64,000 bases of DNA from an uncultured Pelagibacteraceae bacterium (GTDB taxonomy: Bacteria; Pseudomonadota; Alphaproteobacteria; Pelagibacterales; Pelagibacteraceae), in contig CACIJX010000002.1 in assembly GCA_902587085.1 (NCBI GenBank), forward strand, positions 6,158-70,157, written 5' to 3'. A program made the translations under genes and the position numbers. Shown here piece after piece: positions 30,294-33,986 of the stretch (its first letter is position 1; each line of letters opens with the position of its first letter). The notes under the pieces are model-generated. The model had not been told where the DNA came from. It did no database searches and saw only the letters and a program-made list of their open reading frames with translations.

Positions 30294-30341
30294 TAAATAG
30301 GCAATTTTATTAATTTTTTTATTTAAATGATAATCATTCTC

Positions 30342-30370
30342 TTGACATTTAATGCATAAATCTATTTAAG
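30342..30370 (+). promoter_or_regulatory. candidate promoter for the cold-shock gene (TTGACA then AT-rich -10 candidates TATTTA/TTTAAG)
   Basis: A perfect -35 TTGACA lies at 30342..30347. The -10 assignment is ambiguous. Confidence 0.35.
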
Positions 30371-30425
30371 GGCAATATTAGTAAATTTTACTAATGTAAC
30401 GTTAATAAACAAGTAAGGAAGAAAA

Positions 30426-30635
30426 ATGAGTCTAAAAGGTAAAGTAAAGTGGTTCAATGGAACTAAAGGATATGGTTTTATTGAAAGAGAAGATAAAGAA
30501 AAGGACGTTTTCGTTCATTCTTCAGCAGTAAGAGCAGCCGGTTTAAAATACTTAAACGAAGGTGATGAGCTTACTTTTGATGTAGAGAACGGAGAAAAAG
30601 GACCTGCCGCGGTAAATCTACAGAAAACATCTTAA
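30426..30635 (+). CDS. cspA: cold-shock protein (CspA family)
   Basis: 69 aa with RNP1 KGYGFI and RNP2 VFVH motifs. Confidence 0.9.
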
Positions 30636-30662
30636 ATCTTATTACCAGCAATACAATTAATT

Positions 30663-30706
30663 GGGGCGAGGACTGAGATCTAAGTTTTTGCCCCAGTAAT
30701 CTGGGG
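30663..30706 (+). terminator. two mutually exclusive GC-rich hairpins downstream of csp (possible terminator/read-through switch)
   Basis: Hairpin 1 pairs GGGGC (30663..30667) with GCCCC (30690..30694). Hairpin 2 pairs CCCCAG (30691..30696) with CTGGGG (30701..30706). Both need the same CCCC, and a T-rich tract follows only after about 8 nt. Confidence 0.4.
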
Positions 30707-30742
30707 TTGCAATATATTTTTAATTTGTTAAAAGAACTAGAA

Positions 30743-30817
30743 ATGTTAACAAAAAAAAACATCTCTAAATCTCACACACACTCCCACAGAGTGCACGCTA
30801 GGCTATTGCTTAGCTAA
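30743..30817 (+). CDS. hypothetical 24-codon His-rich leader ORF (MLTKKNISKSHTHSHRVHARLLLS)
   Basis: Hand-translated and below the ORF-track length cutoff. Four CAC codons fall within eight codons (30773..30796). The stop lies just after a 7-bp hairpin, GCTAGGC-TATT-GCTTAGC (30797..30814). The ORF sits upstream of tRNA-His-hisS-hisZ-hisG, and its SD is weak. Confidence 0.25.
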   Translation: MLTKKNISKSHTHSHRVHARLLLS

Positions 30818-30862
30818 ATCACTACATATTTAAAATATAATTTTATAAACAATTAATATAAA

Positions 30863-30868
30863 AAGGAG
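30863..30868 (+). promoter_or_regulatory. strong Shine-Dalgarno-like AAGGAG located 4 nt upstream of the tRNA-His 5' end
   Basis: The same hexamer serves groES and groEL in this window. Here the only nearby ATG (30871) is 2 nt away and opens a 3-codon ORF inside the tRNA. Confidence 0.3.
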
Positions 30869-30872
30869 TTAT

Positions 30873-30949
30873 GCAGCAGTAGCTCAGTTGGTTAGAGCAC
30901 TAGTTTGTGGAACTAGGGGTCGGTGGTTCGAATCCACCCTGCTGTACCA
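30873..30949 (+). tRNA. tRNA-His (anticodon GTG), CCA encoded, no encoded G-1, G1:U72, A73
   Basis: Hand-folded 77-nt cloverleaf. Acceptor GCAGCAG/CTGCTGT, D stem GCTC/GAGC, anticodon stem CTAGT/ACTAG with loop TTGTGGA, T arm GGTGG-TTCGAAT-CCACC, then ACCA. Confidence 0.92.
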
Positions 30950-30953
30950 AAAA

Positions 30954-32288
30954 ATGGTAAAAGATAAAAAAACAAAACCTTCTAAAGAATTACCATTAGG
31001 TTTTGTAGATAGACAAGAAAAAGAATTATTAATCCGTGATTTTGTAATTTCTAATATTAAAGAAGTTATGATTAAATACGGTTTTCAATATCTCGAAACG
31101 CCTAGCTTCGAGTATACGGATAGTATTGGAAAATTTTTACCTGATAAGGAAAGGCCAGATTCTGGAGTATTTTCTTTTAAAGATGAAAATAAATGGATGT
31201 CGCTTCGTTACGATCTCACTGCTCCTCTAGCAAGATATGTTGCAAAAAATTATCTTGAAATACCGAAACCATTTAAACGTTACCAATTAGGCTCTGTGTG
31301 GAGAAATGAGAAACCTGGACCAGGAAGATTTAGAGAATTTTTACAATTTGACGCTGATTATGTGGGAACAAAAAATTTACAAGCAGATGCAGAGCTATGT
31401 GTATTAATATCTGAGATATTAGAAAAGTGCGGTTTAAATAAAAAAGATTATACTGTAAAAATTTCTTCTAGAAAATTTACAAATAGATTATTTGAAAAGT
31501 TAAAAATTACATCAGAAGAGCAAATCTCCACCACGCTAAGAGCTCTTGATAAAATCGATAGACTTGGTTGGCAAGAGGCAAAAAAGCTCCTTGGAGAAGG
31601 TCGAAAAGATAAATCAGGAGATTATACAAAGGGAGCAAACCTTAGAAGTGATCAGATTAAAACAATCGAATCCGCTTTGCAAGAAAAAGTTCCTGATAGC
31701 GAAGATGTTTTAGAAATTTTAAAAATATTTGAAGCTTATAATTTTAAGAATTATAAATTTGATCCATCGGTTATCAGAGGATTAGAATATTATACAGGAC
31801 CCATTTTTGAAGTTAATTTAAATTTTGAAGTAAAAAATTCAAAAGGACAAACCATTCAATTTGGATCAATAGGTGGAGGCGGAAGATACGATAACCTTGT
31901 AAGTAATTTTGGAAGTTTAGATTGTCCCGCAACTGGAATATCAATTGGTCTAGACAGACTTGTATTCGCCTTAATGCAGAAAAAAGATTTTAAAATAAAG
32001 TCTACACGACCAATCATTATATGTGTTTTTGATAAAGATAAAATTAAGCAATATGTAGATATACTTAATAAACTTAGAACCTCGAATATAAGCTCAGAGA
32101 TCTACCCGGGAGAAGGTAAGTTAAAAAAACAAATGGAATATGCAAATAAGATAGGATCTCCAGCTGTTATCTTATATGGAGATAACGAAATAAAATCAGG
32201 AAAAGTGACTTTAAAAAATCTTGAAAATGGAAATGAAAGCTCAGTTAAAATAGAGGAATTGGTAAATGAAATCAAAAAATTATTCTGA
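30954..32288 (+). CDS. hisS: histidyl-tRNA synthetase
   Basis: The track ORF (30888) begins inside the tRNA. The first ATG at 30954 gives MVKDKKTKPSKELPLGFVDR.., and the conserved N-terminal region (LPLGFxD) requires this start. Class II motifs are present (..FREFLQFDAD.., ..GGGRYDNL..). Confidence 0.9.
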   Translation: MVKDKKTKPSKELPLGFVDRQEKELLIRDFVISNIKEVMIKYGFQYLETPSFEYTDSIGKFLPDKERPDSGVFSFKDENKWMSLRYDLTAPLARYVAKNYLEIPKPFKRYQLGSVWRNEKPGPGRFREFLQFDADYVGTKNLQADAELCVLISEILEKCGLNKKDYTVKISSRKFTNRLFEKLKITSEEQISTTLRALDKIDRLGWQEAKKLLGEGRKDKSGDYTKGANLRSDQIKTIESALQEKVPDSEDVLEILKIFEAYNFKNYKFDPSVIRGLEYYTGPIFEVNLNFEVKNSKGQTIQFGSIGGGGRYDNLVSNFGSLDCPATGISIGLDRLVFALMQKKDFKIKSTRPIIICVFDKDKIKQYVDILNKLRTSNISSEIYPGEGKLKKQMEYANKIGSPAVILYGDNEIKSGKVTLKNLENGNESSVKIEELVNEIKKLF

Positions 32289-33318
32289 AAATATAATAAA
32301 AGTATTTAAGAAAGATGGTTTTGTTTTATCAGAACCAGATGTTCTTTTAGACTCAGATTATATAATCGAAAGATCTGGTGAGAATTTTAGGAAGATAATG
32401 CTAACTTTTGAGGACGATACCGGGAAAAGCATGTGTTTAAGACCAGATTTGACAGTTGCTTCGTGTATCAAATATTTGAAAGACAATTCTAAAGCAAACT
32501 CAAAAATATATTATTCTGGACAAGCTTACAGACGCTCAAAAAATTTAAAAGATAAAGTTATCAATTATCAAATAGGAGTAGAAATTTTTGGATCAAAAAA
32601 TAAGTCTATCGATGATTTAAAAGTTTTAAAAACAATTACTAATTCAATCAATAAAATAAAAGTTAAAAATACATCAATTAAAGTCGGTGATGTTAGTTTA
32701 TTCAAAAATTTAATCGAGTCTTTAAAAATACCTGAGAGATGGAGATTGAGATTAAAAAGACACTTTTGGAGACCACAATATTTTCAGGATTTACTTGATA
32801 GACTTGAAACAAATTCAGACGTTGATCCTACTACAGTTGAACTAGATAAGAAAAAATTTTTTAAAATGAAAAATATTGATCAAAACAAAGAAATCGCAAA
32901 CCGTAAGGTTTCAGAAATTATAACTAGATTTGATAGAAAAATTAAAGATCCAAGATCATTTAAAGAAAATAAAAAAACCGTAAAAATTATTAAAGATTTT
33001 TTAAAGATCAATTGTCCTATAGAAAATTTAGAAAAAACATTAAATAATTTTACTAACAAAAATAACTTAGGGAAAAATATTTTTAGAGACATATCGAGTT
33101 TAAAAAACTTATCAAAACTAAATTCAAAAATAATTTTCTCGACTAATTTTGGAAGGGATATTGAATATTATTCGGGATTAGTTTTTGAGATATATAATTC
33201 CTCAAAAAAAGAAATTGCAAGGGGAGGAAGATACGATGGTTTATTAAAAAGCCTTGGATCAAAGAAAAATATTTCAGCGGTTGGAGCAGCAATAAATTTA
33301 AACAATTTAAAGATATGA
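32266..33318 (+). CDS. hisZ: ATP phosphoribosyltransferase regulatory subunit (HisRS paralogue)
   Basis: 350-aa HisS-like protein without an anticodon-binding domain (..GGRYDGL..). It lies between hisS and a short-form hisG. Confidence 0.8.
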   Translation: MKSKNYSENIIKVFKKDGFVLSEPDVLLDSDYIIERSGENFRKIMLTFEDDTGKSMCLRPDLTVASCIKYLKDNSKANSKIYYSGQAYRRSKNLKDKVINYQIGVEIFGSKNKSIDDLKVLKTITNSINKIKVKNTSIKVGDVSLFKNLIESLKIPERWRLRLKRHFWRPQYFQDLLDRLETNSDVDPTTVELDKKKFFKMKNIDQNKEIANRKVSEIITRFDRKIKDPRSFKENKKTVKIIKDFLKINCPIENLEKTLNNFTNKNNLGKNIFRDISSLKNLSKLNSKIIFSTNFGRDIEYYSGLVFEIYNSSKKEIARGGRYDGLLKSLGSKKNISAVGAAINLNNLKI

Positions 33319-33986
33319 AAAATATAATAACAGTAGGACTACCGAGCAAAGGAAGATTACGAGAAGGAGCAATAGATTTTTTTAAAAAAAATAATTATAA
33401 CCTTACCTCAAATGGCGGTGAAAGAAATTATTTTGCGGATGTTGAAAATTTTCCGAATATAAAAATCATTTATTTACATGCAAAGGAAATTATTCAAAGA
33501 CTTGGTGATGGCACACTTGATATAGGAATTTCAGGCTTAGATCTTTTAAATGAGTCGTCATCAAACTTAAAGAATAAAATTGAGGTTAATAAAAAATTAG
33601 ATTTTGGTTCAGCAAATGTTGTGATTGCTATTCCTGATGATTGGATTGATGTTCAAACTGTTGCAGATTTAGAAGAAGTATCTTTTGACTTTAGAGACAA
33701 AAAGAATACGAGATTAAGAGTTGCAACCAAATATCCCAATTTAACAAATACTTTTCTTGTTTCTAAAGGTGTTACACAATACAAATTAGTCCCCAGTCTT
33801 GGCGCAACTGAAACTTACCCATTCATTGGCTCATCAGAAATTATTACAGATATAACTTCAACTGGAAAAACACTAAAAGATAATAATCTTAGAGTTTTAA
33901 AAGATGGTTTAATTCTTCAATCAAAAGCATGTTTGTTGGTTGCTAAAAAATCTTCAAAAAAAGTAAAGTCATTGAAAATTTTTTAA
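33315..33986 (+). CDS. hisG: ATP phosphoribosyltransferase, short form
   Basis: 223 aa. Its start forms an ATGA overlap with hisZ. Confidence 0.85.
   Translation: MKNIITVGLPSKGRLREGAIDFFKKNNYNLTSNGGERNYFADVENFPNIKIIYLHAKEIIQRLGDGTLDIGISGLDLLNESSSNLKNKIEVNKKLDFGSANVVIAIPDDWIDVQTVADLEEVSFDFRDKKNTRLRVATKYPNLTNTFLVSKGVTQYKLVPSLGATETYPFIGSSEIITDITSTGKTLKDNNLRVLKDGLILQSKACLLVAKKSSKKVKSLKIF

What the first reader, a model, noticed from the sequence alone, without database searches (positions are those of the whole stretch)
30863..30956. tRNA-His gene ends 4 nt before the hisS start codon, with a strong SD on the other side of the tRNA: possible structure-bridged RBS or tRNA-as-operator
Seen directly:
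- The hand-folded tRNA-His (30873..30949, CCA encoded) is followed by AAAA and then the only possible hisS ATG at 30954. The conserved HisRS N-terminus LPLGFxD lies 13 codons downstream, so the start cannot be later.
- There is no SD between the tRNA and the ATG.
- A perfect AAGGAG (30863..30868) sits 4 nt upstream of tRNA position 1. This is the same hexamer used by groES and groEL in this window.
- The ATG next to that hexamer is only 2 nt away and opens a 3-codon ORF, so the hexamer is unlikely to serve it.

Inference:
- When the tRNA folds, its acceptor stem brings positions -1 and +78 together. The virtual SD-to-AUG spacing is then 4+4 = 8 nt, which is close to optimal.
- A hairpin-bridged RBS of this kind has been reported for phage T4 gene 38.
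- RNase P cleavage at 30872/30873 would cut the SD away from hisS. tRNA maturation and hisS translation from one transcript would then be mutually exclusive.
- Alternatively, HisRS binding its cognate tRNA embedded in its own mRNA could occlude initiation. This would resemble the ThrRS operator but use a real tRNA.
- I know of no described case of a synthetase translated through its own cognate tRNA gene.
Basis: partly seen in the sequence, partly recalled or inferred. Interest (0 to 1): 0.7.

Follow-up and report, generated by a model that had tools for sequence, protein, structure and literature searches.

The report
tRNA-His inside hisS ribosome-binding site
In SAR11 ocean bacteria the only histidine tRNA gene found here sits between the ribosome-docking motif and the start codon of its own charging enzyme, inside a histidine-sensing operon, so the ribosome may have to dock across a folded tRNA, which has not been shown.

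Summary
tRNA-His (30873..30949) ends 4 nt before the hisS ATG (30954), and AAGGAG (30863..30868) lies 4 nt upstream of the tRNA.

- **Conservation.** All 80 Pelagibacteraceae species loci, and two more distant lineages, place tRNA-His 3-5 nt before hisS.
- **The purine motif is under selection.** GG occurs within 10 nt upstream in 57 of 60 distinct sequences, in a spacer that is otherwise 2% G.
  - Its offset from the tRNA varies (0, 1 or 4 nt).
  - One whole lineage lacks it.
  - Most genes in this genome have no Shine-Dalgarno (SD) sequence.
- **Outgroup.** An outgroup without the tRNA insertion has AAGGAAG directly before hisS. The tRNA therefore appears to sit inside an ancestral ribosome-binding site.
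  - A conserved promoter and a His-rich leader peptide (30743..30817) lie upstream. The unit is hisL-tRNAHis-hisS-hisZ-hisG.
  - tRNA-His plus hisS is exchanged between genomes as one cassette.
- **Spacing correction.** The bridged SD-to-AUG spacing is 12 nt, not 8, because A73-C74-C75-A76 is unpaired.

The split-RBS reading is plausible but unproven. It competes with SD-independent initiation on a processed, nearly leaderless mRNA.

The parts
30707..30712 (+). -35 element (TTGCAA) of the operon promoter P1
   Evidence: 78 of 81 loci have TTGnnn, a 16-17 nt spacer, then TAnnnn ending 6-8 nt before the uORF ATG. Assigned by conservation only; no transcript data.
30729..30734 (+). -10 element (TAAAAG, preceded by TGT) of P1. 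The predicted start site is about 30741-30743, so the leader ORF would be nearly leaderless.
30743..30817 (+). His-rich leader ORF (hisL-like): MLTKKNISKSHTHSHRVHARLLLS*. His codons start at 30773, 30779, 30785 and 30794.
   Evidence: All 81 loci have an ATG-started ORF of 19-27 codons with 2-4 clustered His, stopping 48-56 nt (44-69 nt over all loci) before the tRNA. The N-terminal half is variable; frame, length and His codons are kept. It is also present in distant lineages and in the outgroup (MLIIKHHHSHI). His makes up 1.4% of residues in window proteins; P(>=3 His in 8 residues) = 1.5e-4.
30779..30793 (+). Hairpin H1 (CACTCC-CAC-AGAGTG) over the His codons
   Evidence: Compensatory changes occur: CACTCT/AGAGTG, CATTCT/AGAATG, CACACT/AGTGTG; pair 12-22 is UA:12 and CG:9. 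Found only in clades A and C.
30797..30814 (+). Hairpin H2 (GCTAGGC-TATT-GCTTAGC) in the last codons of the leader ORF, ending at the stop codon
   Evidence: Present in every lineage. 100% of cells are paired, and changes are one-sided only (G-U/A-U). No U-tract follows, so it is not a canonical terminator.
30818..30862 (+). A/T-rich, almost G-free spacer with a conserved TAATAT-AAA block (30854..30859)
   Evidence: G frequency is 2% over -45..-11. The TAnnAT block is conserved in all lineages. It could be a weak internal -10 box, but no -35 lies at the right distance.
30863..30868 (+). AAGGAG, an SD-like element and probably the 5' half of a hisS ribosome-binding site split by the tRNA
   Evidence: -8.2 kcal/mol with the anti-SD, the second strongest in the window after groEL. 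GG lies within 10 nt upstream of the tRNA in 57 of 60 distinct sequences. The outgroup has AAGGAAG directly before hisS. The motif is absent in clade D.
30873..30949 (+). tRNA-His (GTG), 77 nt, CCA encoded, no G-1 (T at 30872), G1-U72, A73
   Evidence: ARAGORN; Rfam RF00005, 71.9 bits. The G-1-less/A73 type is described for this group (PMC3937112; PMC4284800).
30950..30953 (+). AAAA spacer between the CCA end and the hisS start
   Evidence: Spacer length is 3 nt (5 loci), 4 nt (66) or 5 nt (10), and is A-rich.
30954..32288 (+). hisS (histidyl-tRNA synthetase, 444 aa)
   Evidence: Pfam PF13393 (1.3e-36) and PF03129. The start is conserved.
32266..33318 (+). hisZ (HisRS-like regulatory subunit of ATP phosphoribosyltransferase); overlaps hisS by 23 nt
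   Evidence: Pfam PF13393 only, with no anticodon-binding domain. Same order in all lineages.
33315..33986 (+). hisG (ATP phosphoribosyltransferase); overlaps hisZ by 4 nt
   Evidence: Pfam PF01634, 6e-35

Best explanation
The tRNA-His gene is the first structural gene of a histidine-controlled operon, and it sits inside what was the ribosome-binding site of hisS.

**Architecture**
- The order is: sigma-70-type promoter (30707..30734), a nearly leaderless His-rich leader peptide (30743..30817), an A/T-rich spacer, AAGGAG, tRNA-His, AAAA, then hisS-hisZ-hisG.
- tRNA-His and hisS form a co-adapted pair that is inherited and exchanged as one cassette.

**How hisS is most likely translated**
- On the primary transcript the tRNA folds. 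Its acceptor stem then leaves the SD-like element only 8-13 nt of single strand (12 nt in this window) from the AUG.
- A 30S subunit docked on the SD can then reach the start codon. This is a split RBS of the T4 gene 38/25 kind, with a whole tRNA as the bridging structure.
- Cleavage by RNase P and the 3'-end nucleases releases the tRNA. What remains is a hisS-hisZ-hisG mRNA with a leader of 0-4 nt.
- That mRNA is translated without an SD, as most genes in this genome are. The SD is therefore an enhancer and not a requirement.

**Shown versus inferred**
- Shown: the anatomy, its conservation, selection on the motif, the leader ORF and the cassette exchange.
- Inferred: transcription from P1 through the tRNA, sensing of His-tRNA by the leader peptide, and use of the SD across the tRNA.
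For: **Adjacency**
- tRNA-His lies 3-5 nt before hisS in 80 of 80 species loci and in more distant lineages.

**Promoter and leader ORF**
- 78 of 81 loci have TTGnnn-16/17-TAnnnn ending 6-8 nt before an ATG-started ORF of 19-27 codons with 2-4 clustered His codons.
- Chance of >=3 His in 8 residues is 1.5e-4.
- No promoter-like or terminator-like site lies between the leader ORF and hisS.

**SD-like motif**
- The spacer is 2% G, yet GG lies within 10 nt of the tRNA in 57 of 60 distinct sequences.
- The motif scores -8.2 kcal/mol, second only to groEL in the window.
- It ends 0-4 nt from tRNA position 1, giving bridged spacings of 8-13 nt.
- Outgroup L085 has the same hisL-hisS-hisZ-hisG operon without the tRNA, and AAGGAAG lies 4 nt before the ATG. 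Its tRNA-His, of the same type, sits 5 nt after tRNA-Phe with no GGA upstream. The motif therefore goes with hisS and not with tRNA maturation.

**Cassette exchange**
- L087 matches clade-B loci at 81-95% in flanks and leader, up to position -1 of the tRNA, and again in hisZ/hisG.
- Across tRNA-His plus hisS it matches at only 29-70%.

**Precedent**
- Split RBSs bridged by RNA structure are documented for T4 genes 38 (22 to 5 nt) and 25 (27 to 11 nt) (PMC3014915).
Against: - Clade D (L081-L083, L089-L093) has no G in the 20+ nt before the tRNA, yet keeps tRNA-5 nt-ATG. The SD is therefore dispensable.
- The offset of the motif differs among clades (0, 1 or 4 nt), with no compensating change in the downstream spacer.
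- Only 11% of 61 window genes reach -6 kcal/mol with the anti-SD, against 7.6% of random positions. SD-independent initiation is the norm here.
- RNase P would sever the SD from hisS, and this is probably the only tRNA-His gene, so most transcripts must be processed.
- A 77-nt L-shaped tRNA is far bulkier than the 16-17-nt hairpins of the T4 cases.
- No canonical terminator/antiterminator follows the leader ORF, so how it is read out is unknown.
- No transcript or ribosome data for this locus were found.
Confidence: 0.45

Rival explanations
1. tRNA punctuation with SD-independent initiation.
- The tRNA is cut out quickly by RNase P and a 3' endonuclease or exonucleases.
- hisS is translated only from the processed, nearly leaderless mRNA (5'-AAAAAUG), or by SD-independent binding to the A-rich start region.
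- The GGA motif does not act as an SD. It serves something else, such as RNase E cleavage, weak pairing with C74-C75 of the precursor, or protein binding.
For: - 82-89% of window genes lack an SD.
- The hisS start region is A-rich and unstructured.
- The spacer is held at 3-5 nt and the start codon is always ATG, as leaderless initiation requires.
- The leader ORF itself looks leaderless.
- Clade D works with no purine motif.
- infA stop-2-7 nt-tRNA-Phe shows that tRNAs abut coding sequences elsewhere in SAR11.
- MFE folds of clade B and C precursors pair the GG with C74-C75.
Against: - This model gives no positive reason for strong selection on GG/GGAG immediately before the tRNA.
- The same type of tRNA-His needs no such motif in the outgroup or in clade D.
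- In the outgroup the motif sits on hisS.
- Short spacers are the rule in this streamlined genome, so the 3-5 nt spacing is weak evidence.
Confidence: 0.3
2. tRNA as operator. HisRS binds the cognate tRNA while it is still embedded 4 nt upstream of its own start codon and blocks 30S binding. This would be autoregulation in the manner of the ThrRS operator, but using a real tRNA. It could coexist with either model above.
For: - The start codon is 3-5 nt from the CCA end in every lineage.
- tRNA and synthetase co-vary as a matched cassette.
Against:
- The precursor lacks a free CCA end, and processing would remove the operator.
- A His-rich leader peptide already provides a sensor.
Confidence: 0.1
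3. Internal promoter. The conserved TAnnAT block (30854..30859) is the -10 box of a second promoter that drives tRNA-His and hisS. The GGA/AAGGAG marks its start-site region, so in clade A the motif lies at or before the 5' end of the RNA and cannot serve as an SD.
For: - TAATAT, TAGTAT, TAAGAT or TATTAT is conserved 13-18 nt before the tRNA in all lineages, including clade D.
- In clade A, a start 7 nt downstream of it falls on the GG.
Against: - No -35 element lies at 16-18 nt in any clade, whereas P1 has a clear one.
- The GG keeps its distance to the tRNA (-8..-2) and not to this block (+6 to +16).
- The block aligns with TTAGTAC just 5' of the SD in the outgroup's hisS leader, where it cannot be the hisS promoter.
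Confidence: 0.1
4. No function. The juxtaposition is a by-product of genome streamlining, and the AAGGAG is a chance or decaying relic.
For: - The hexamer is not over-represented in the window (24 against 30 expected).
- Intergenic spacers are generally tiny.
Against: - GG is kept in 57 of 60 distinct sequences, across clades whose HisRS differ by more than 20-50%, inside a spacer that has otherwise lost nearly all G.
- Adjacency is kept in every lineage and is carried through a cassette replacement.
Confidence: 0.05

Closest known systems
Split (structure-bridged) ribosome-binding sites of phage T4 genes 38 and 25
   Same: An SD lies too far from the AUG in the primary sequence. A stable intervening RNA structure brings it within working distance (22 to 5 nt and 27 to 11 nt; PMC3014915). 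Here 85 nt become about 12 nt.
   Different: - The bridge here would be a complete, functional tRNA gene of 77 nt that is normally excised, not a 16-17-nt hairpin.
- Function is untested.
- The SD is missing in one lineage.
Leader-peptide (ribosome-mediated) attenuators of his operons and of hisS/hisZ paralogues
   Same: - A short ORF with clustered His codons lies between the promoter and histidine-related genes.
- His leader peptides upstream of hisS-family genes and hisZ are described in bacilli (PMC2965389).
- Variants that control translation instead of termination are known (PMC9413887).
   Different: - No terminator/antiterminator with a U-tract is present.
- There is no match to Rfam His_leader.
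- The His codons are interspersed (H-x-H-x-H-x-x-H), not a run.
- The ORF appears leaderless.
- The first regulated gene is the tRNA that reads the regulatory codons.
tRNA-mRNA co-transcription units (E. coli thrU-tyrU-glyT-thrT-tufB; metY-rimP-nusA-infB). Cited from my own knowledge.
   Same: tRNA genes at the 5' end of an operon that encodes a translation protein which handles tRNA, separated from it by RNA processing.
   Different: - Here the tRNA is the cognate substrate of the enzyme encoded next.
- The gap is 4 nt instead of roughly 100 nt.
- No separate RBS lies downstream of the tRNA.
Mitochondrial tRNA punctuation. Cited from my own knowledge.
   Same: tRNAs abut coding sequences, and their excision would create mRNAs with leaders of 0-4 nt.
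   Different: This is a single junction in a bacterial genome, with an SD-like element retained on the far side. No processing data exist.
ThrRS operator (tRNA mimic in the thrS leader). Cited from my own knowledge.
   Same: A tRNA-shaped element lies next to the start site of the cognate synthetase gene.
   Different: Here it is a genuine tRNA and not a mimic. Binding and repression are untested.
pylT-pylS (tRNA-Pyl gene next to its synthetase gene). Cited from my own knowledge.
   Same: A cognate tRNA and synthetase encoded side by side and moved between genomes as a unit.
   Different: A different amino acid and domain of life, with no overlap with an RBS and no leader peptide.

Membership tests
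Split / structure-bridged RBS (T4 gene 38/25 type) | An SD complementary to the 16S 3' end lies too far upstream of the start codon in the linear sequence | tested here: met
   AAGGAG scores -8.2 kcal/mol with CACCUCCUUA and lies 85 nt before the ATG. The 16S sequence of this organism is not in the window, so the anti-SD is assumed to be canonical.
Split / structure-bridged RBS (T4 gene 38/25 type) | The intervening sequence folds stably and brings the SD to a working distance (about 5-13 nt) | tested here: met
   The intervening sequence is a tRNA (71.9 bits). Bridged spacing is 12 nt in the window, 11-13 nt across clade A, and 8-9 nt in clades B and C, counting the unpaired ACCA.
Split / structure-bridged RBS (T4 gene 38/25 type) | SD and geometry conserved among relatives that keep the arrangement | tested here: inconclusive
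   GG lies within 10 nt in 57 of 60 marine sequences. However, there are three different offsets, and clade D has no motif.
Split / structure-bridged RBS (T4 gene 38/25 type) | Disrupting the SD or the bridging structure lowers translation | not testable with these tools
   Needs reporter fusions or toeprinting.
His-type leader-peptide attenuator | Short ORF with clustered codons for the regulating amino acid, lying between the promoter and the cognate genes | tested here: met
   81 of 81 loci, the distant lineages and the outgroup have it. The promoter is present in 78 of 81. Downstream genes are tRNA-His, hisS, hisZ and hisG.
His-type leader-peptide attenuator | Mutually exclusive terminator and antiterminator hairpins, with the terminator followed by a U-tract | tested here: not met
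   - No terminator-like site lies in 30300..31300.
- H2 is conserved but has no U-tract.
- There is no significant pairing of the leader with the SD region.
His-type leader-peptide attenuator | Match to Rfam His_leader (RF00514) | tested here: not met
   Only tRNA was found at E<=1 in 30300..31300.
tRNA-mRNA co-transcription unit | Same strand, with no room for a promoter or terminator between tRNA and coding sequence | tested here: met
   The spacer is 3-5 nt in all loci.
tRNA-mRNA co-transcription unit | A transcript spanning both genes | not testable with these tools
   No SAR11 start-site or long-read RNA data were found.
ThrRS-type translational operator | The synthetase binds a tRNA-like element in its own leader and competes with the 30S subunit | not testable with these tools
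   Only the geometry is known: a real tRNA 4 nt from the AUG.
G-1-less tRNA-His of the Rhizobiales/Rhodobacterales/Caulobacterales/Pelagibacter group | No encoded G at -1, and A73 instead of C73 | tested here: met
   T at 30872. The acceptor is GCAGCAG/CTGCTGT, followed by A73-CCA. The trait is described in PMC3937112 and PMC4284800.

The most novel reading that the evidence does not exclude
A complete, functional tRNA is the bridging structure of a split ribosome-binding site. A 30S subunit docked on the SD just 5' of the tRNA initiates at the AUG 4 nt 3' of it. RNase P cleavage at 30872/30873 competes with that docking. Each primary transcript would then give a short burst of HisRS synthesis before it is converted into one tRNA-His plus a poorly translated, nearly leaderless mRNA. 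All of this would sit under a leaderless His-codon leader peptide that is read by the very tRNA it controls.
Probability: 0.3. Interest if true: 0.8.

Novelty: new variant of a known kind. Interest (0 to 1): 0.62.

Why it matters
SAR11 is among the most abundant groups of organisms in the ocean and has very few protein regulators. This locus packs four things into about 250 nt: a sensor (the His leader peptide), the tRNA that reads the sensor, the enzyme that charges that tRNA, and the first enzyme of histidine synthesis.

- **If the SD works across the tRNA.** This would be the first split RBS bridged by a functional tRNA. It would also make RNA processing and translation initiation directly antagonistic on one transcript.
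- **Even if it does not.**
  - The data show that a cognate tRNA and synthetase pair is kept in absolute linkage.
  - The pair is swapped between closely related genomes as one cassette. This is a concrete mechanism for keeping tRNA identity rules and synthetase matched under heavy recombination.
- **For annotation.**
  - Gene callers often extend hisS into the tRNA.
  - The leader ORF is not called.

Tried and rejected
1. **RBS-sequestor model** (the leader-ORF region pairs with the GGA motif). RNAduplex of the -12..+2 window against the leader ORF in 81 loci gave a mean z of +0.34 against shuffles, with inconsistent partner positions. Rejected.
2. **Hairpin H2 as a mimic or anti-sense of the tRNA 5' region.** There is apparent 12-13-nt complementarity in clades A and C. 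However, H2 is unchanged in L086, whose tRNA-His has a different D-arm and acceptor stem. Rejected.
3. **In-frame extension of HisRS from TTG 30888 inside the tRNA.** The spacer varies between 3 and 5 nt, so the frame is not kept. Rejected.
4. **The 3-codon ORF at 30871 as the target of the SD.** No ATG is present in clade B, and the SD overlaps the ATG in clade C. Rejected.
5. **Canonical intrinsic terminator after the leader ORF.** None was found (and inspection).
6. **Rfam.** Only tRNA matched; there was no His_leader and no other family.
7. **Reaching distant relatives with the search for homologous proteins on the window protein.** It returned only relatives of at least 91% identity. The representative search, followed by secondary searches, was needed.
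8. **Wang, Sobral and Williams 2007 (PMC1855720).** The paper is not held, so I could not confirm whether it already reports the tRNA-His/hisS adjacency. A later paper says it discusses co-transfer of the pair.
9. **Literature searches.** I looked for SAR11 start-site mapping, for a SAR11 His leader peptide, and for a synthetase translated across its tRNA. Nothing was found. Meyer et al. 2009 excluded tRNA-containing intergenic regions from their RNA-motif search.
Full report
**1. The observation**

The sequence is as described.
- ARAGORN finds one tRNA in the window: tRNA-His(GTG) at 30873..30949 with CCA encoded. Rfam's tRNA model scores it at 71.9 bits.
- The tRNA has T at -1, so no G-1 is encoded. 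It also has a G1-U72 pair and A73. This is the derived tRNA-His type described for Pelagibacter and several alphaproteobacterial orders (PMC3937112; PMC4284800).
- AAAA follows the tRNA, then ATG at 30954 opens a 444-aa histidyl-tRNA synthetase (Pfam PF13393 and PF03129).
- AAGGAG lies at 30863..30868, followed by TTAT and then the tRNA.
- ATG 30871 opens a 3-codon ORF.
- groES and groEL do carry the same hexamer 4-5 nt before their starts.
- Downstream, hisZ (32266..33318) overlaps hisS, and hisG (33315..33986) overlaps hisZ.

One detail needs correcting. The acceptor stem pairs positions 1-72, so A73-C74-C75-A76 stays single-stranded. The bridged SD-to-AUG distance is 4 + 8 = 12 nt, not 8.

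**2. Conservation of the junction**

A scan of one genome per species returned 80 Pelagibacteraceae loci whose HisRS is 76-98% identical to the window's.
- All 80 have tRNA-His immediately before hisS.
- The spacer is 3 nt (5 loci), 4 nt (66) or 5 nt (10), counting the window. It is A-rich and always followed by ATG.
- Because the spacer length varies, the open frame that runs from inside the tRNA into hisS in this window is not conserved. The ATG at 30954 is therefore the true start.

**3. The purine motif**

Upstream of the tRNA there are three configurations:
- AAGGAG ending at -5, as in the window (about 33 loci);
- AGGA ending at -1 (clade B, which has a different acceptor stem);
- (A/G)GGA(T/C) ending at -2 (clade C).

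The 45 nt before the tRNA are otherwise almost free of G: 2% over -45..-11. Yet GG occurs within the last 10 nt in 57 of 60 distinct sequences, against 0.5% of comparable windows further upstream. The motif is therefore under purifying selection in these clades.

With the anti-SD it scores -8.2 kcal/mol. That makes it the second strongest such site in the window, after groEL at -8.7.

**4. SD usage in this genome**

- Of 59-61 long ORFs in the window, only 9 have even a 4-mer SD.
- Only 11% reach -6 kcal/mol, against 7.6% of random positions.
- A gene without an SD is therefore the rule here, and hisS needs no special device to be translated.
- Conversely, a strong conserved SD-like element is rare in this genome, so this one stands out and needs explaining.

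**5.

An alignment of the upstream 110 nt showed a strongly conserved block 50-100 nt before the tRNA. Read in frame, it is a short ORF.
- In the window it runs 30743..30817 and encodes MLTKKNISKSHTHSHRVHARLLLS*.
- All 81 sequences have an ATG-started ORF of 19-27 codons with 2-4 clustered His codons. It stops 48-56 nt before the tRNA in nearly all loci; the full range is 44-69 nt.
- The N-terminal half differs freely between clades: MLKKINTSIS, MIENLKIINLLN, MIKKVKVSVN, MIIKKTLSTLR. Frame, length and the His cluster are kept. This is the signature of a regulatory leader peptide and not of a functional small protein.
- His is 1.4% of residues in the window's proteins. The chance of 3 or more His in a given 8 residues is 1.5e-4.
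- 78 of 81 loci have TTG(A/C)A(A/T), a 16-17-nt spacer, then TAnnnn ending 6-8 nt before this ATG. In the window these are TTGCAA at 30707..30712 and TAAAAG at 30729..30734.
- The predicted start site falls on or just before the ATG, so the leader ORF would be leaderless. This fits its invariable ATG and its lack of an SD.
- The last codons form a hairpin, H2 (30797..30814), found in every lineage. It is 100% paired, with one-sided changes only.
- A second hairpin, H1 (30779..30793), lies over the His codons and shows compensatory changes in two clades.
- No terminator-like hairpin with a U-tract follows, and Rfam's His_leader does not match.
- His leader peptides in front of hisS paralogues and hisZ are known in bacilli (PMC2965389). 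Leader-peptide systems without a terminator are also known (PMC9413887).
- The survey of Pelagibacter RNA motifs excluded intergenic regions that contain tRNAs (PMC2704228). That would explain why this leader ORF went unnoticed.

**6. More distant lineages**

*Clade D.* A lineage with 61% HisRS identity (L081-L083, L089-L093; four sublineages) has the following features.
- The gene order is hisD-infA-maf-tRNAPhe-leader ORF-tRNAHis-5 nt-hisS-hisZ-hisG. The leader peptide reads MKKIYISTHRYHPHARHVLS or similar.
- There is no G at all in the 20 or more nt before the tRNA.
- The adjacency and the leader peptide are therefore older and more constant than the SD-like motif, and hisS can do without the motif.

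*L086 and L087.* These loci have a HisRS only 44-48% identical to the window's and a very different 75-nt tRNA-His. They still have the leader ORF..AAGGAT, the tRNA, AAAA and the ATG.

*Outgroup L084/L085.* HisRS identity is 46-48%.
- It has the operon hisL (MLIIKHHHSHI*)-hairpins-AAGGAAG-ACTA-ATG hisS-hisZ-hisG with no tRNA in it.
- Its tRNA-His is of the same G-1-less type. It lies 1.4 kb upstream, 5 nt after tRNA-Phe, with no GGA before it.
- Two things follow. The purine motif is attached to hisS and not to tRNA-His maturation. And the SAR11 arrangement looks like a tRNA gene lying in the spacer of a canonical RBS: with the tRNA removed, the window reads AAGGAG-TTAT-AAAA-ATG.

**7. A cassette**

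L087 and clade-B loci (L027, L037) compare as follows:
- 81-95% identical through csp, the promoter, the leader ORF and the spacer, up to the base before the tRNA;
- 84-95% identical again from the start of hisZ onward;
- only 29-70% identical across tRNA-His plus hisS.

The breakpoints coincide with the 5' end of the tRNA and the 3' end of hisS. A matched tRNA and synthetase pair has therefore been replaced as one unit in an otherwise closely related genome.

This gives a second, non-exclusive reason for the tight junction: absolute linkage of a co-adapted pair. Co-transfer of tRNA-His and HisRS into SAR11 was discussed earlier, according to PMC3937112. I could not read the original paper.

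**8. How it most likely works**

*Shown*
- The anatomy and its conservation.
- Selection on the motif.
- The leader ORF and its promoter.
- The cassette exchange.

*Inferred*
- Transcription starts at P1 and runs through the leader ORF, the tRNA and hisS-hisZ-hisG. No promoter-like or terminator-like site lies between them, and the gap is 4 nt.
- Ribosome stalling at the His codons reports low His-tRNA-His and raises expression of the tRNA, its synthetase and the first enzyme of histidine synthesis.
- The read-out step is unknown. There is no canonical terminator, and I found no sequestering helix for the SD.
- A Rho-dependent mechanism is possible, in which the stalled ribosome covers the C-rich His-codon region. 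This is pure inference.

*hisS translation.* I favour a dual route.
- On the unprocessed transcript the folded tRNA leaves the SD 8-13 nt from the AUG. That is within the range where an SD works, as in the split RBSs of T4 genes 38 and 25.
- After RNase P and 3' processing, the mRNA has a leader of 0-4 nt and is translated without an SD, like most genes here.
- The SD would then be an enhancer. This fits both its retention in the marine clades and its loss in clade D.

*The main rival.* All translation comes from the processed or SD-independent route, and the motif does something else. This rival explains clade D and the SD-poor genome, but gives no reason for the selected motif.

*Other readings.*
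- The tRNA-as-operator idea remains possible and untested.
- An internal promoter at the conserved TAnnAT block is unlikely. It has no -35 element, and the motif tracks the tRNA and not that block.

**9. Verdict**

- The specific claim, a structure-bridged RBS through a tRNA, is partly supported by comparative evidence but unproven. I put it at roughly 0.3-0.45.
- The architecture is a new variant built from known parts: a leader-peptide control region, tRNA-mRNA co-transcription and a split RBS.
- The adjacency itself may already have been noted in 2007. I found no description of the leader ORF, of the motif's conservation, or of the cassette exchange.

Noticed in passing
L087 2422..3892 compared with L027 and L037; also L086: tRNA-His plus hisS is replaced as one cassette by a very divergent pair (75-nt tRNA GCCGCCTTCGGATAATGG..., HisRS 44-48% identical). 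The flanks stay 81-95% identical. The breakpoints fall at the tRNA 5' end and at the hisS 3' end / hisZ start.
   Followed up: yes
window 30707..30817: A conserved promoter and a His-rich leader ORF are not part of the finding as given. The -10 box ends 6-8 nt before the ATG in 78 of 81 loci, so the leader peptide would be translated from a leaderless RNA.
   Followed up: yes
window 30662..30706: Downstream of the cold-shock gene (30426..30635) lie two mutually exclusive hairpins: TGGGGC (30662..30667) with GCCCCA (30690..30695), and CCCCAG-TAAT-CTGGGG (30691..30706). The second abuts the -35 box of the his promoter. This may be the csp terminator or a switch. The 3' arm (GTCCC..) is conserved in related loci.
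   Followed up: partly
L015-L044 and L081-L087, upstream of tRNA-Phe: In many Pelagibacterales loci the stop codon of infA is followed within 2-7 nt by tRNA-Phe; in clade D the tRNA follows maf after a longer gap. tRNA genes that abut coding sequences are therefore not peculiar to tRNA-His. tRNA-Phe has no purine motif of its own upstream.
   Followed up: partly
proteins P0001, P0010, P0012, P0121 and others: Public gene calls for this hisS often start inside the tRNA. Lengths of 454, 460, 466 and 494 aa are called instead of 444 or 478. For example, P0121 begins MEPDVGGSSPPSCTKT, which is the translated T-arm and acceptor strand. This is a systematic mis-annotation.
   Followed up: partly
whole window: SD sequences are rare. 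About 11-18% of long ORFs have one, barely above background. Strong ones sit on groES, groEL and a few others.
   Followed up: partly
window 30854..30859 and the equivalent position in all lineages: A TAnnAT-AAA block 13-18 nt before the tRNA is conserved even in clade D and resembles TTAGTAC in the outgroup's hisS leader. Its function is unknown; it may be a weak internal -10 box or an RNA element.
   Followed up: partly
window 32240..32265: hisZ has its own SD-like GAGGA (-7.1 kcal/mol) inside the end of hisS, whereas hisG has none.
   Followed up: no
L085 2374..2500: The outgroup's his leader has a 10-bp hairpin that starts at the uORF stop codon (GTTTGTTAGT..GCTAACAAAC). A U7 run lies 12 nt further on, and a second small hairpin abuts the SD. 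This may be a more conventional attenuator, useful for comparison.
   Followed up: partly
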